Positions 2,981-57,188 of a DNA stretch of 64,000 nt are shown in pieces (position 1 is the first letter of the stretch; every line of letters starts with the position of its first letter). Source of the DNA: Octopus sinensis (Eukaryota); assembly GCF_006345805.1 (NCBI RefSeq), contig NC_043016.1, positions 11,904,001-11,968,000 on the forward strand. Direction: 5' to 3'. Made by a program: the position numbers and the translations under genes. The notes under the pieces were generated by a model. That model did not search any database. It had not been told where the DNA came from and saw nothing but the letters and a program-made list of their open reading frames with translations.

Positions 2981-3815
2981 TCTTTTACTTGTTTCAGTCA
3001 TTATACTGTGGGGCACCACCTTGAAGGGTTTTAATTGAACAAATCAACCCCAGTATATCTTTTATCTTTTACTTGTTTCAGTCATTGGACTGTGGCCATG
3101 CTGGGGCACCACCTTGAAGGGTTTTAGTTGAACAAATCAATCCCAGTATATCTTTTATCTTTTACTTGTTTCAGTCATTGGACTGTGGCCATGCTGGGGC
3201 ACCACCTTGAAGGGTTTTAGTTGAACAAATCAATCCCAGTATATCTTTTATCTTTTACTTGTTTCAGTCATTGGACTGTGGCCATGCTGGGGCACCACCT
3301 TGAAGGGTTTTAGTTGAACAAATCAATCCCAGTATATCTATTATCTTTTACTTGTTTCAGTCATTGGACTGTGGCCATGCTGGGGCACCACCTTCAAGGG
3401 TTTTAGTTGAACAAATAAATCCCAGTATATCTTTTATCTTTTACTTGTTTCAGTCATTGGACTGTGGCCATGCTGGAGCACCATCTTCAAGGGTTTTAGT
3501 TGAGTTGAGTGAATTGATCCCAAGAATTTTCTTTTAAGCCTGGCACTTATTCTTTTGGTCTCTTTTGCCAAACCACTAAGTTATGGGGACATAAACATAC
3601 CAACACTGACTATCAAGCAGTGGTGGGGAACAGACAGACACACACACATATGTATACCACAGGTCTCTTTCAGTTTCCGTCTACCAAACCCATTCACAAG
3701 GCTTTGGTCAACCCAAGGCTATAGTAATAGAAGAAACTTACCCAAGGTGCCACACAGTAGGACTGAACCTGGAACCATGTGATTGGGAAGCAAGCTTCTT
3801 AACACACAGTCATGC
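2981..3815 (-). mobile_element. tRNA-derived CORE-like SINE (family A) with its 3' end amplified into about 6 tandem 93-bp units
   Basis: units start at 2981, 3065, 3158, 3251, 3344 and 3437; SINE body and head continue to about 3815. Confidence 0.85.
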
Positions 3816-4505: not shown

Positions 4506-5184
4506 GTTAGAAAAAGCAAAATGAGAGAAAAGGAAAGAAGCAAATAAGGACAACAGAGGGCTGAGAACTTTTCATAGGTCACTACATAAGAAAAACACTA
4601 AGAAAACAATTGAAGCTTTCTTTCTAGTTTTTGTATAAGTATTGTAAATGAGGAAATATAGAAGTAAGGTGTGGACAAATGTCTCATTAAAGCAGCTGAC
4701 CTTCTGTGTGAAAATGAAAATAAACGATTATTGACAGAATAAGGAAATTATTGTTCAGGTGGATCGTTAACCAATGTATTTCCTTCGTTAAAATTCATTA
4801 TCTAGGATTCCTTCTTTTCCTTTAACACTATTTAACACTGTTGGACTATTGAACAGTGACTAATAACTGCCTCTGTCTTTGATATTTAATACCTGAATTT
4901 TGCTTGCCCTGTTGTGGACTTTATGTATGATATGAATATTATCATATTCCAAGTAAAATGGATGAAACAAGATTTCAGAATTTTGGACCTTGCTTCAAGA
5001 CCTCAACTCTTGGATCCATAAATCAGAGTTATGACATACAGTATGTCTCAGGCACCTCTTAGACTTGGGGAAACCCATCCTTGACCAGGTCTTACTTCTG
5101 GAGAGTGCCCAAGGTCCAACCACTCTTTTGTTCCAGAAAACGAGACACTGACAAAGAAAGAATGAGAACAACAGAAGAATGTAT

Positions 5185-10837: not shown

Positions 10838-11150
10838 AAACAATTGCAGCGTGGAAGGTGTTTGTAAGCCATTTAAGAAACACACAAAAGCCGTTCGATT
10901 CACTTCAACATTTAAGTTTAATTTGTCAAATATTTACATTGCTTTAAGACCGCGACCTGTTCACTGACAAAAATCCGTGCTGCATCTTAAAGCGACGAAA
11001 ATATTTTGACAAATTAAACTTAAATGTTGAAGTGAATCGAACGGCTTTTGTGTGTTTCTTAAATGGCTTATAAACACCTTCCACGCTGCAATTGTTTTCG
11101 TTCCAGCACACGATCTCAGATCAAATCACTTGCTATGCAAGTACATCTCT

Positions 11151-11153
<3 letters not shown>
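10838..11153. mobile_element. Head-to-head inverted short element (about 110-bp arms) carrying a hammerhead motif; probably PLE-derived
   Basis: arms 10838-10949 and 10985-11097 are reverse complements; another copy at about 57062-57188. Confidence 0.75.
10922..10972 (-). ncRNA. Type I minimal hammerhead-like motif with G3-C8 swapped core (this copy partly decayed)
   Basis: TTTGTCA GTGAACA G GTCGC-loop-GCAAT GTAA ATAT T TGACAAA; the duplicated arm at 10992-11013 preserves GCGAC GAAA ATAT TT TGACAAA. Confidence 0.55.
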
Positions 11154-11197
<44 letters not shown>

Positions 11198-11302
11198 TAT
11201 ACTAAATATATAAAAAACGAAGAACAAACACAAGAAAAAAATAATGTGATAACGTGGTACATGCAAAGTATTAGCAGATGCTCAATGAAGGAAAGAAAAG
11301 TA

Positions 11303-11338
11303 GCTTTACATTTCGAGCAAAGCTCTTCATCAGAAACA
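11303..11338 (-). ncRNA. Minimal type I hammerhead ribozyme motif in a short element (about 11210-11400)
   Basis: TTT CTGATGA A GAGC TTT GCTC GAAA TG TA AAG; homologous copy at 34788-34823. Confidence 0.65.
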
Positions 11339-11399
11339 GGAGACGGGGGGGGGGGGGGAAGTCCAAAAGGAAAGGAGGACAGAGGAAAAAAAATCACGA

Positions 11400-11559: not shown

Positions 11560-13482
11560 TTTTATTCAGTAACTTAAAACAATGGAACAAAATACATTAA
11601 GTCCTTTATAATTGTGACCTTTTTTTACTTGAACAAAATTTCTTCATAGTTTGTTCTTGTCTCTTTTAGAACTTGAATCTTTCTTTCAGATTTACATCTC
11701 AAATTAGATCATACATCCAGGTAGTCCTCACTATTAGCAGTGTGCTCATTTATTTAGCTGAAGGCATCAGTTTTATTATTGATTTTGTAAGAAGGGCCAA
11801 ATCACCTAAAAGTTTTTCTATTTTGTCAGAAATCTTATACATCATCATCATCGTCGTCGTTTAACATCCGCTTTCCATGCTGGCATGAGTTGGACGGTTT
11901 GACTGAGGACTGGCAAGCCAGAAGGCTGCACCTGGCTCCAATCTGATCTGGCAAAGTTTCTACAGCTGGATGCCCTTCCAAATGCCAACCAGTCCGAGAG
12001 TGTAGTGGGTGCTTTTACATGCCACCGGCACGATGATCAGTCAGGCAGTACTGGCAACGACCACATTCAAATGGTGTTTTTTTACGTGCCACCTGCAGAG
12101 GAGCCAGTCTGGCGGCACTGGCAACGACCACACTCAAATGTTTTTCACGTGCCAGTAAGGCAACGCTGGCAATGATAAAGCTCAAATTGTGTTTTTTATG
12201 TGTCACCAGCACGGGAGCCAGTCAGCGGCCCTGGCAACGATCACACTCAGATGGGGCTTTTAACGTTCCACTGGCACGGATGCCAGTAAGGCAACACTGG
12301 TAATGGCCATGCTCAAATGGTGTTTTTTATGTGTCACCAGCACGGGTGCCAGTCAGCGGCCCTGGTAACCATCATACTTTTAATGTTCCACTGGCACGGT
12401 TGCCAATCCTCTGTATAATTTCAGTAAGAAAAGAAATAAACTTTCTTTCTGTCTTTATACAGTCAACTAATATTTCTGAAGTATAACATTTTTCACTCAA
12501 TGTTGCTATGTCAGTGAGTTCTAAGCTTAATCCAGTGTGATATGATATGTCCAAATATCAAGCAGCTCAGCAACACCATACTTTCAGTGGAAAGCCATCT
12601 TGTTTGACGGTCTGATGGAATTGTCTGTGATTTTCCTTCATGTATAGCTTCATCTAAGATTTTTATGCTATTGATAAATAAATCACTTGCATGTTTCAGA
12701 GATAAGGAATACCAGATTTCAGATGGGGGGTAAATAGAATCAACTGGGGCATTACGATAAGTGATGGATTCTCTTTCTTGAATTTCTGATAAAAACCATT
12801 ATTTTATGCAAGCCATCAGACTTGTGCTGTCAGCGCCAACAGCCTTCAAGCTTAGTAACATCGGTTTTTTAAAATTCATTCTTTAACGCTTCAGTAATAT
12901 CCACTCGCATTACATACATCAAGCTCTACAATATCAAAAGTTGAAACTACTTTTTCCCTAATTATGATTGAAATAAATTACCAGCAAATATCAAGTATTT
13001 TATATATACAGATGTCATTTGACTTGTCTAAACGCAGGGGGTATTTACTATTACATATAACTATGAAATCATTTTCAAAATGAGGGATCAACTAAATATT
13101 TTTACTTGTAGGACTACATTTTCCATTTTGAAATAGTTTTACTATCTTTTGTATTCTTAAACATAACTGTTTCAGGGTAGAAAAAGCTTTTAACATTATA
13201 TTTCCTCTTCAAAATACGATAATGCAACGCATATTTGCTTAACAAACTTTATCAAGCAATAGTTGTCCCTGTAATTTTAATGTTTGTTTTTGTTTATTAT
13301 TATTTGTTTTTGTTTGTTATCATGATAAATTAAATCACTAAACTTAACATTTATCTTGCCCTTTCACGCCTAGCATTTCAGTTCCACTGAAACCATTATC
13401 TATTTCTTTTAACATGTCTTTAAACTCGGTTTTTAACTCATTGTCCTCTGAACTTTTGTTTATATTTCTTTACTTTCAGCAT
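11560..13482 (-). pseudogene. Decayed hAT-superfamily transposase (ZNF862-like), interrupted by an RTE tail
   Basis: hand translation across frameshifts gives, in the expected order: MLKVKKYKQKFR, C..(C)KGKINVKFSDLIYH, KYPLRLDKSNDI (cf. DESTD), VGADSTSLM..NGFYQKFKKENPSLI, QTRWLSTE, SEKCYTSEIL, KLLGDL. Confidence 0.75.
11840..12410 (-). mobile_element. RTE LINE 3' end with tandem UTR repeats
   Basis: (cat)n tail plus ctggcaacga..aaatggtg repeat units. Confidence 0.85.
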
Positions 13483-37822: not shown

Positions 37823-39398
37823 ATAAAAGATATACAGGGATTGATTTGTTCAACTAAAACCCTTCAAGGTGGTGCCCCAGCATGGCCATAGTCCAATGAC
37901 TGAAACAAGTAAAAGATAAAAGATATACAGGGATTGATTTGTTCAACTAAAACCCTTCAAGATGGTGCTCCATCCAGCATGGCCACAGTCCAATGACTGA
38001 AACAATAAAGATAAAAGATATACAGGGATTGATTTGTTCAAGTAAAACCCTTCAAGTGGTGCCCCAGCATGGCCACAGTCCAATGACTGAAACAAGTAAA
38101 AGATAAAAGATATACAGGGATTGATTTGTTCAATTAAAACCCTTCAAGGTGGTGCCCCAGCATGGCCACAGTCCAATGACTGAAACAAGTAAAAGATAAA
38201 AGATATACAGGGATGATTTGTTCAAGTAAACCCCTCAGATGGTGGTCCCAGCATGGCCACTCCAATGACTGAAACAAGTAAAAGATAAAAGATATACAGG
38301 ATTGATTTGTTCAACTAAAACCCTTCAAGGTGGTGCTCCCATGGCCACAGTCCAATGACTGAAACAGTAAAAGATAAAAGATATACAGGGATTGATTTGT
38401 TCAAGTAACCCTTCAAGATGGTGCTCCAGCATGGCCACAGTCCAATGACTGAAACAAGTAAAAGATAAGTGATATACTGTGATTGATTTGTTCAACTAAA
38501 ACCCTTCAAGTGGTGCCCCGCAGCATGGCCACAGTCCAATGACTGAAACAAGTAAAGATAAAAATATACTGGATTGATTTGTTCAACTAAAACCCTTCAA
38601 GGTGCTGCCCCAGCATGGCCACAGTCCAATGACTGAAACAAGAAAAAGATAAAAGATATACTGGGATTGATTTGTTCATCTAAGAACCTTCAAGGTGTTG
38701 CTCCAGCATGGCCACAGTCCAATGACTGAAACAAGTAAACGATAAAAGATATACTGGAATTGATTTGTTCAACTAAAACCCTTCAAGGTGGTGCCCCAGC
38801 ATGGCCACATTCCAATGACGAAAACAAGAAAAAGATAAAAGATATACTGGGATTGATTTGTTCATCTAAGAACCTTCAAGTGTTGCTCCAGCATGGCCAC
38901 ATCCCAATGACTGAAACAAGTAAAAGATAAAAGATATACTGGAATTGATTTGTTCATCTAAGAACCTCAAGGTGTTGCTCCAGCATGGCCACAGTCAATG
39001 ACTGAAACAAGTAAAAGATAAAAGATATACTGGAATTGATTTGTTCATCTAAGAACCTTCAAGGTGGTGCCCCAGCATGGCCACATTCCAATGACTGAAA
39101 CAAGTAAAAGATAAAAGATATACTGGGATTGATTTGTTCATCTAAGAACCTTCAAGGTGTTGCTCCAGCATGGCCACAGTCCAATGACTGAAACAAGTAA
39201 AAGATAAAAGATATACTGGGATTGATTTGTTCATCTAAGAACCTTCAAGGTGTTGCTCCAGCATGGCCACAGTCCAATGACTGAAACAAGTAAAATAAAG
39301 AAGATACTTGGAATTGATTTGTTCATCTAAAACCCTTCAAGGTGGTGCCCCAGCATGGCCACATTCCAATGACTGAAACAAGTAAAAGATAAAAGATA
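37822..39398 (+). repeat. Tandem array of 17 units of about 93 bp derived from the family A SINE 3' end
   Basis: unit gggattgatttgttcaactaaaacccttcaaggtggtgccccagcatggccacagtccaatgactgaaacaagtaaaagataaaagatatac(a/t); 17 aatgac markers counted. Confidence 0.95.
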
Positions 39399-39440
39399 TT
39401 AACATTGGGCGATATTCTTGAGAGTATTTGGAATCTTACC

Positions 39441-55930: not shown

Positions 55931-57061
55931 GAAAATGAAAAACCCTGACCAACAGACTCCAACAAATGATAATAAAACAAACAACAATAACCTTTCGTTT
56001 AATGAATTTGTTTTTTCTAAACGCTCATATGCTTTTTGTCATTAATCATACATAAATCCAGTAAGTAGAATGCTTGGGCTATAAAACAGCAGATTTAGTG
56101 CCATTGATAAAAGAAAAGAAAAGAAATCAACTTTGTGTATGATTGGAGATCTGGGATGGGATGAGAGAGAGAGGATGTAATCGTAAGTGACTTTTATAAG
56201 AAGTTTTAGTGAAGACTTACAATGTGAATGACTTGAATTGCTAACAGCTTTAAGAGGCCACCTTTCAACCAGCAAAAACTCTTATCTTTGCCACTTTAGA
56301 TTTATAGATTAATATATAAATATAGTGGATGTCAGCACAGACTTAATAGGCTTAAAATTATTCAACAATAACAACAACAAAAAAGTAAAAAAAACAAATA
56401 AACTATAACTATTGGGAGTTATACTTTGATATACCATGTAACTGTTTTGGTTTAGGAAGAGCTGTGTGCCATTGATTGGTCTAATATTTCTCATAATGAG
56501 AGGTGAGGAGGACCGAGGTGTTCTGTGAATTGCCATGTGCAATTTTTTTTATTTGTTTTAGTCAAAAGACCGCAGCTGTTCTGGAGAGATGTACTGCCTT
56601 GAGTGATGTTTTAGTCAAAGAGATCAACTCCAGGGCTAATTATCTGGACAAGTAGGGTATCTATTCTATCAGCCTCTTTAGCTAAAACCACCAGGTTTCG
56701 TTAATGTTAAACAAACCAACATCATTTGTCAAGTAGTGGCGGTGGGCAAACACAGATACAAAGAGACATACGCGCGCGAACACGCACACACACACGCACA
56801 CACACACACACACACATGTAACAGAACAACACACACAACATAGGTGTGTGCGTCTCTCTCTCTCTCTCTCTCTCACTCACTATGCACGCCAACAAACAAA
56901 CAAAAAGAACGCAGCTCTGATAACTGACAGAGTCAACGATTTTTGAAAAGGTTGCAAGACGCAACGAAAATTTTTACAAAAAATTAGTAGAAATCGGTGA
57001 GTGTGTAGTTTATAAGACACTAAAAGAGAATGACTCTCCTCCCCACGCACACATATATATA

Positions 57062-57188
57062 TTACGGAGATGTACTTGCATAGCAAGTGACCTGATCTGA
57101 GATCGTGTGCTGCGTGGAAGGTGTTTATAAGCCATTTAAGAAACACACAAAAACAGTTAGATTCATTTCAACATTTAAATTTAATTTG
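57062..57188 (-). mobile_element. Truncated copy of the 10838-11153 element
   Basis: gagatgtacttgcatagcaagtga..gccatttaagaaacacac..ttaatttg. Confidence 0.8.

What the first reader, a model, noticed from the sequence alone, without database searches (positions are those of the whole stretch)
10838..11153. Hammerhead with a G3-C8 swapped core, reconstructable from the two arms of an inverted repeat
Seen: the minus arm has stem I TTTGTCA/TGACAAA around GTGAACA (versus canonical CTGANGA) and stem II GTCGC, but its 3' half is mutated. The plus arm retains the intact 3' half GCGAC GAAA ATAT TT TGACAAA. The merged motif has a 7-bp stem I, a 5-bp stem II and a palindromic stem III (AATATT). Both core changes fall on the C3-G8 tertiary pair. 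Inference: a natural compensatory swap.
Basis: partly seen in the sequence, partly recalled or inferred. Interest (0 to 1): 0.8.

Follow-up and report, generated by a model that had tools for sequence, protein, structure and literature searches.

The report
Octopus retrotransposon hammerhead with flipped core
Thousands of copies of a Penelope-like jumping gene in this genome (likely an octopus) carry a hammerhead-ribozyme motif whose normally fixed C3-G8 core pair is flipped to G3-C8 while sister families keep C3-G8, a paired change that likely leaves the RNA able to cut itself slowly; the copy in this window is a broken, inverted remnant.

Summary
The inverted repeat is a 5'-truncated, inverted insertion of a Penelope-like retrotransposon (RT + CX3CxxC linker + C-terminal GIY-YIG; Neptune/Nematis type). 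No reconstruction is needed, because intact single-arm motifs occur in the genome. With positions 3 and 8 left free, 5,921 of 6,563 matches are G3+C8 and no family copy is C3+G8. Two sister families in this genome and five related elements from metagenomes carry the motif downstream of their ORF with C3-G8 (six lineages) or U3-A8 (one), and stems I-III co-vary. So the swap is a natural compensatory change in a minimal type I PLE hammerhead. This window copy cannot form the ribozyme on either strand. Cleavage is untested. G3-C8 is known to rescue activity in vitro; I found no report of it in nature, but could not read four key papers. Against strict selection for catalysis: 225 copies have an unpaired G3.G8, and one sister family has C at position 9. 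Verdict: new variant of a known kind.

The parts
10838..11153 (.). 5'-truncated Penelope-like element insertion: sense pLTR fragment with tail, preceded by an inverted tail-less copy
   Evidence: same architecture in 28 insertions scored among L001-L060
10838..10987 (-). inverted (short) arm; ends at the tail-less 3' end point of the family
10965..10971 (-). hammerhead stem I, 5' strand
   Evidence: pairs co-vary across families
10958..10964 (-). catalytic-core strand G3 U4 G5 A6 A7 C8 A9 (swapped 3-8 pair)
   Evidence: 5,921 of 6,563 genome matches
10957..10957 (-). extra G between A9 and G10.1 (nucleotide typical of PLE minimal hammerheads)
   Evidence: Cervera 2014 text
10952..10956 (-). 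stem II, 5' strand
10922..10942 (-). decayed 3' half of the motif in the inverted arm (3 substitutions, among them C11.1 and A13, and 1 deletion)
10985..10987 (.). 3-nt microhomology at the inversion junction
   Evidence: read (both arms include these bases)
10985..11097 (+). sense arm, 5'-truncated inside loop II; lacks the core
10992..11013 (+). intact 3' half: stem II 3' strand, G12 A13 A14, palindromic stem III (11000-11005), U17 (11006; predicted cut 3' of it), stem I 3' strand
   Evidence: cut site inferred from hammerhead numbering
11098..11153 (+). about 55-nt PLE 'tail', present on one arm only; in full-length copies it runs on into the ORF 5' region
11158..11182 (.). (TA)n target microsatellite
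   Evidence: 19 of 28 scored insertions lie at (TA)n

Best explanation
This is a dead, inverted fragment of the pseudo-LTR of a Neptune/Nematis-type Penelope-like retrotransposon whose minimal type I hammerhead motif has its core C3-G8 pair replaced by G3-C8 in about 90% of copies, and intact copies of the motif likely still self-cleave slowly, predicted to cut after U17 when paired as a dimer or helped by the element's protein. Shown: family membership; the pLTR-ORF-pLTR layout; G3-C8 as the family state; covariation against sister families; that this copy cannot fold a complete motif on either strand. Inferred: (a) G3-C8 is derived from C3-G8, because related families and the published consensus have C3-G8; (b) the swapped pair keeps nucleotide 8 positioned, as in engineered C3G/G8C double mutants; (c) the 6-nt palindrome forms helix III between the two motifs of a pLTR-ORF-pLTR transcript; (d) the window copy arose by target-primed reverse transcription from two start sites (tail versus no tail) with a microhomology inversion.
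For: Counts. A 1,042-codon open frame and a 793-aa RT-linker-GIY-YIG frame lie on the motif's strand. In 23 of 30 top endonuclease loci the G3-C8 motif follows 0.87-1.14 kb downstream; the other 7 gave no motif. L223 has the motif about 270 nt upstream of the ORF region, with the tail running into it. Family B (54% aa) has the motif in 28 of 30 loci, 0.46-0.58 kb downstream, with 97 of 100 listed C3 and 100 of 100 G8, of 2,969 matches. Family C is C3+G8 in 90 of 100 listed, of 693. On 19 chosen copies of the three families, 7 of 15 pairs change on both sides, the 3-8 pair among them; slid controls give 0-3. Of 7 metagenome loci, 5 show the motif 90-170 nt after the ORF match: C3-G8 in four, U3-A8 in one. 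Subfamily-diagnostic changes fall in 4 of 8 loop II columns but 1 of 44 core or stem columns, and that one keeps the pair (P = 0.001). Literature passages: C3G/G8C partly rescues a PLE hammerhead (PMC11167929); the G:C swap was the only rescue in the CUGA turn in a pairwise scan (PMC9901934).
Against: No cleavage data: the sequencing runs are contigs and show no molecule ends. 225 matches have unpaired G3.G8 against 55 with G3.A8; in 3 of 10 two-armed loci both arms carry G8, so some unpaired templates may have been copied. Sister family B has C at position 9 in 96 of 100 listed, a change I would expect to harm the core (own knowledge), and it is a successful family. Core and stems are not significantly more conserved than the rest of the unit (1 of 44 versus 10 of 137, P = 0.30). 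In a young copy (L150) stem I has pair probabilities of only 0.27-0.38 because of a competing hairpin, against 0.68-0.97 in L031; two-strand folding did not return the dimeric hammerhead for family A, nor for canonical family C. In vitro, cleavage was not needed for PLE insertion. The covariation rests on three families plus five single copies, not on many independent events.
Confidence: 0.68

Rival explanations
1. Same ancestry and same fold, but catalytically vestigial: the motif is kept as a structure that the element's protein binds near the reverse-transcription start, and the 3-8 pair is kept for shape, not for cutting.
For: C9 in family B and in L316; U15.1-A16.1 read in L317; the excess of G3.G8 copies; low or protein-dependent activity of PLE hammerheads and dispensable cleavage in vitro; a 10-nt palindrome around stem III could pair over A13, A14 and U17 in a dimer (read from the sequence).
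Against: U4, G5, A6, G12, A13, A14, A15.1, U16.1 and G10.1-C11.1 are invariant across families A, B and C. At family level the 3-8 positions are always Watson-Crick, in three different pair types; this tertiary pair belongs to the active conformation (own knowledge).
Confidence: 0.26
2. The two changes are independent neutral substitutions in a dead motif that happen to be complementary.
For: Position 8 changes C to G more often than C to A among copies, so one of the two changes may be mutationally easy.
Against: Against family C's commonest core only positions 3 and 8 differ. Rough odds that two changes among 11 core positions hit this pair and restore pairing are (1/55) x (3/9), about 0.6% (my estimate). 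Stems co-vary too, and G3-C8 is kept from the deepest sampled family A branch to the youngest.
Confidence: 0.04
3. The inverted repeat is a MITE-like DNA element or a miRNA-like hairpin, and the hammerhead likeness is chance.
For: Long near-perfect inverted repeat; Rfam gives only sub-threshold miRNA-hairpin hits and no hammerhead hit.
Against: Arms are asymmetric (tail on one) and junctions differ between copies; long copies continue into an RT-GIY-YIG frame; Rfam also misses the canonical family C motif.
Confidence: 0.02

Closest known systems
Minimal type I hammerheads in PLE pseudo-LTRs (Cervera and de la Pena 2014, PMC4209133)
   Same: Place in the pLTR; minimal palindromic helix III; extra nucleotide between 9 and 10.1; G10.1-C11.1; U17, which is common in their Fig. 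S3; mostly dispersed truncated copies, some in opposite orientation.
   Different: Core begins with G3 and has C8. All 56 rows of their Fig. S3 begin with C or U, though their descriptors fixed the core. The extra nucleotide is G, where their consensus gives H.
Natural U3-A8 hammerhead variants (Perreault 2011, PMC3088659; S. mansoni Cercyon PLE family, PMC4209133)
   Same: Natural covariation of the 3-8 Watson-Crick pair.
   Different: U3-A8 needs two transitions and can pass through a U.G wobble. G3-C8 needs two transversions through G.G or C.C (inference).
Engineered C3G/G8C double mutants (Anolis Poseidon PLE hammerhead, PMC11167929; pairwise scan, PMC9901934)
   Same: Identical swap; singles inactive, double partly active.
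   Different: Those are laboratory mutants; here it is the natural state of a family with thousands of copies.
Neptune / Nematis clades of Penelope-like elements (as described in Craig 2021, PMC8557442)
   Same: RT, CX2-5CxxC linker, C-terminal GIY-YIG-type domain with CCHH-like residues, DKG-like motif, 5' truncation with inverted copy, one-sided tail, microsatellite targets.
   Different: Clade not resolved against reference sequences; tail about 55 nt (30-40 typical); about 1 kb microsatellite-rich 3' region.
Non-LTR retrozymes (PMC7229834; bioRxiv 10.64898/2026.07.22.740005)
   Same: Short, about 200-nt hammerhead-bearing copies related to PLE pLTRs.
   Different: Copies here are dispersed, variably truncated and inverted pieces of an ORF-bearing element, not tandem monomer arrays in the loci examined.

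Membership tests
Hammerhead ribozyme, minimal type I (PLE type) | Core strand C3 U4 G5 A6 N7 G8 A9 as in the consensus | tested here: not met
   G3 and C8 in 5,921 of 6,563; hence a variant, not the canonical core
Hammerhead ribozyme, minimal type I (PLE type) | Watson-Crick pair between positions 3 and 8 | tested here: met
   G-C in family A, C-G in B and C and four outgroup copies, U-A in one
Hammerhead ribozyme, minimal type I (PLE type) | U4, G5, A6, G12, A13, A14, A15.1-U16.1, H17, G10.1-C11.1 | tested here: met
   invariant or majority columns; N17 = U in 151 of 151 arms
Hammerhead ribozyme, minimal type I (PLE type) | Helices I and II supported by covariation; palindromic minimal helix III | tested here: met
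   (three families only; rows chosen by me from pattern matches)
Hammerhead ribozyme, minimal type I (PLE type) | Match to an Rfam hammerhead model | tested here: inconclusive
   no hit, but the canonical control family C has none either
Hammerhead ribozyme, minimal type I (PLE type) | Site-specific self-cleavage | not testable with these tools
   needs an assay; contig data show no RNA ends
Penelope-like element, EN+ | Single ORF with RT and C-terminal GIY-YIG endonuclease | tested here: met
   motifs read (motif names recalled or, 67 passages); Pfam and PDB sequence searches gave nothing
Penelope-like element, EN+ | pLTR-ORF-pLTR partial tandem, inverted 5' copies, one-sided tail | tested here: met
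Neptune/Nematis clades | CX2-5CxxC linker between RT and endonuclease | tested here: met
   CX3CxxC in P0001; criterion
Neptune/Nematis clades | Placement in an RT tree with named reference elements | not tested
   no named references at hand; the tree holds unnamed homologs only
Non-LTR retrozyme | Tandem arrays of 170-400-nt hammerhead monomers without an ORF | tested here: not met
   copies extend into the PLE 3' region and ORF; the tail continues into the ORF, not into a monomer start

The most novel reading that the evidence does not exclude
First natural hammerhead family built on G3-C8, within a PLE clade whose ribozyme core is unusually free (3-8 pair seen as C-G, U-A and G-C; position 9 as A or C; 15.1-16.1 flipped in one copy) because the element's own protein chaperones the fold. 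Transposition-competent unpaired G3.G8 templates show how a double-transversion valley can be crossed, and CUGANGA-based searches have missed whole PLE ribozyme families.
Probability: 0.25. Interest if true: 0.72.

Novelty: new variant of a known kind. Interest (0 to 1): 0.5.

Why it matters
The C3-G8 pair was proved by an engineered swap; this is that swap made by evolution and carried in thousands of genomic copies. It is also evidence that the PLE hammerhead, whose role is unsettled (low activity, cleavage dispensable in vitro), is held in a fold that needs the 3-8 pair. Families A (G3-C8), B (C3-G8 with C9) and C (canonical) form a ready natural series in one genome for testing whether that fold is kept for cutting. 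Search descriptors that fix C3 and G8 would miss such families, so reports that an element 'lacks a hammerhead' may need rechecking.

Tried and rejected
Rfam: no hammerhead hit among the 150 of 178 rows shown for the window, the 17 rows for the locus or an intact copy; uninformative, as the canonical control also fails. Folding of single window arms is no better than shuffles (z 0.08-0.60); only the two-arm hairpin is (z about -8). Retrozyme idea (tail joined to the monomer start, hinted by L013): rejected. A canonical C3-G8 subfamily inside family A: none. U17 as an adaptation to G3 (to avoid G3-C17 mispairing, suggested by PMC3884650): not supported, since C3-G8 family B also has U17 and U17 is common in PLE hammerheads. 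G3.G8 as a preserved ancestral intermediate: not supported. Such copies are spread over all loop II subfamilies, do not group on the endonuclease DNA tree, and the longest-branch sampled copy with a motif is G3-C8 (tree poorly resolved). An apparent enrichment in one loop subfamily (4 ORF-linked copies) did not hold genome-wide: 4 of 100 listed, of 251, against 1 of 100 listed, of 1,667, in the youngest subfamily. Pfam and PDB found nothing for the protein; viral contigs hold no relative. A genome search with P0003 returned, among the places I could match to earlier lists, families A and B again; no loci were taken. Earlier scan findings: none. A genome-wide count of fully intact motifs was not obtained.

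Full report
Observation. The minus arm holds stem I 5', the core GTGAACA (10964-10958), an extra G (10957) and stem II 5'. Against an intact genomic copy its 3' half has three substitutions and one deletion, while the plus arm begins at 10985, inside loop II, and has an intact 3' half. Neither strand can therefore fold a whole hammerhead here, and a read-through transcript would form a long hairpin (z about -8).

The family. The window lies in a 2.72-Gb genome. A protein named by its source as Octopus vulgaris (P0008) matches this genome at 98%, so the host is likely an octopus. The 5'-half pattern with positions 3, 7 and 8 free has 6,563 matches, control 0. G3+C8 accounts for 5,921. Both positions differ in 19; 17 of these are decayed family copies without a C3+G8 combination and 2 are unrelated chance matches. 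These exact-match counts are lower bounds and count both arms of an insertion. Contigs of four public runs, three from coded organisms A, B and C and one marine metatranscriptome with a single contig, list no variant of 3% or more at positions 3 or 8 (40 of 41 rows shown).

What carries it. Longer copies extend 5' through a microsatellite-rich region into a frame of 793 aa, or 1,042 codons in L149, on the same strand. [quoted passage not shown] That is the layout Craig 2021 gives for the Neptune and Nematis PLE clades (passages); Pfam did not recognise it. The motif follows the endonuclease at 0.87-1.14 kb in 23 of 30 top loci, always with G3-C8; 7 gave no motif. Among 12 loci holding the ORF's 5' region, L223 shows the upstream motif and the tail running into the ORF, which gives pLTR-ORF-pLTR. 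Of 28 inverted, tail-bearing insertions scored in L001-L060 (some not independent), 19 lie at (TA)n, and 6 of the other 9 have 8-13-nt flanking duplications. The two arm end points, about 55 nt apart, fit the two reverse-transcription start sites reported for an Anolis PLE (PMC11167929, passages and half of the main section).

Comparative test. Family B (54% aa) has the motif in 28 of 30 loci; of 2,969 matches, the first 100 listed are 97 C3, 100 G8 and 96 C9. Family C, found through L046, has 693 matches; 90 of the first 100 are C3+G8 and none G3+C8. Its commonest core differs from family A's only at 3 and 8. The tails of A, B and C are visibly related. A quick protein tree puts A as sister to B+C (support 94 and 100; the careful search did not finish). 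On 19 copies that I chose from the three families, 7 of 15 pairs change on both sides, including the 3-8 pair and pairs in all three helices; 10 of 500 shuffles reach that, and slid controls give 0-3. Family C has a one-base bulge in stem I that lowers pairing there. Of 7 metagenome relatives (42-49% aa), five show the motif shortly after the ORF: L319 and L321 canonical, L316 U3-A8 with C9, and, read by eye, L317 C3-G8 with U15.1-A16.1 and L320 C3-G8 with a change at U4. L318 and L322 showed none. At lineage level the 3-8 positions thus always pair, in three ways.

Within family A. In 151 arms (not a random sample; it includes loci picked for changed cores) the subfamily-diagnostic columns fall in 4 of 8 loop II positions and 1 of 44 core or stem positions, that one a U-A to U.G change (P = 0.001). 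Against the rest of the unit the difference is not significant (P = 0.30). Unpaired G3.G8 is in 225 matches against 55 for G3.A8. Such copies occur in all subfamilies; 7 two-armed loci are discordant and 3 concordant. Of 61 ORF-linked loci examined, 29 below 94% endonuclease identity gave a motif: 20 G3-C8, 4 G3.G8, 2 other singles, and 3 family C rows. Two of three independent insertions with an upstream motif have G8. I cannot explain the excess; it reads as a recurrent change, sometimes copied, not as a basal intermediate.

Mechanism. Most likely the motif works as other PLE minimal hammerheads are thought to: slow cleavage after U17, with helix III formed between two motifs through the palindrome or with help from the element's protein. 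Cervera 2014 (parts 1-2 of 4 and supplement file 2 parts 1-2 of 3 read; file 1 not searchable) lists the extra nucleotide after A9, G10.1-C11.1 and the palindrome as traits that emerged unselected, and found low dimer activity. All three traits are present here. The swap is compatible with catalysis: single C3G or G8C kills and the double partly restores a PLE hammerhead, it was the only rescue in the CUGA turn in a pairwise scan (PMC9901934, passages), and a review says the same (PMC8495972, one passage). Folding is equivocal: stem II is stable (0.99-1.0), stem I is 0.68-0.97 in one copy and 0.27-0.38 in another, and no dimeric hammerhead was returned. Activity is inferred, not shown. The main rival is a fold kept for protein binding.

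Novelty. Natural covariation to U3-A8 is in print (PMC3088659, passages and part 3 of 8; PMC4209133). Ten library searches found G3-C8 or C3G/G8C only as engineered mutants (PMC3884650, passages), and none of the 56 motifs in Cervera's Fig. S3 has G3. Passages of PMC6765202, PMC7229834 and PMC10085705 and parts 1-2 of 5 of bioRxiv 10.64898/2026.07.22.740005 added nothing on this. I could not read Lunse 2017 (about 150,000 PLE-linked variants, figure recalled), Hammann 2012, Przybilski and Hammann 2007 or Arkhipova 2017, nor figures or most supplementary alignments, so a prior report is possible; I put the chance that natural G3-C8 is unreported at about 55%.

Verdict. Real, well supported by comparison, a new variant of a known kind; interest 0.5.

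Noticed in passing
G000 family B, e.g. L165:2198-2243, L219:4371: Sister PLE family with 2,969 pattern matches whose hammerhead core has C at position 9 (96 of 100 listed); C9 recurs with U3-A8 in metagenome locus L316. Both have G next, which might replace A9.
   Followed up: partly
window about 11300-11342, minus strand (L001 minus 1934), and window 34818, minus strand: Two canonical-core minimal hammerheads with an extra A after A9, of a different repeat family; the first lies about 150 nt from the finding.
   Followed up: no
L079 minus 208; L159 plus 234; L012 minus 1171: Hammerhead-like motifs with U3-A8 (first two) or U3 with G8 and longer palindromic helix III in the same genome.
   Followed up: no
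L317, about 90-130 nt after the ORF match ending at 4883: Related metagenome PLE whose motif appears to have the 15.1-16.1 pair flipped to U-A (read by eye).
   Followed up: no
L150:4975-5203 laid with runs X11, X18, X5: A-to-G differences at 15 and 3 places in the two runs guessed to be RNA against 1 in X5 (at 5112 about 24% and 7% versus 0.05% of depth), as A-to-I editing of inverted-arm hairpins would give; runs are of different organisms and RNA status is a guess.
   Followed up: no
genome-wide, e.g. L228, L230, L247-L275: Fourfold excess of C8-to-G over C8-to-A changes (225 versus 55), unexplained.
   Followed up: partly
window 57053-57188, minus strand: Second, older family A fragment (79% identity) truncated downstream of the hammerhead.
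   Followed up: partly
L149:5577-2452 (G000:C16), L219:710-3841, L220:5123-1764: Long open frames (1,042, 1,044 and 1,120 codons stop to stop) of families A and B, pointing to recent activity.
   Followed up: partly
L010/L020 around 1430-1780: Insertion with tails on both arms and flanks that are inverted copies of each other; rearrangement or assembly artefact.
   Followed up: no
window 37823-39399 and 3009-3503; 12006-12405: 93-bp tandem arrays (17 and 5 copies) and degenerate 65-67-bp repeats.
   Followed up: no
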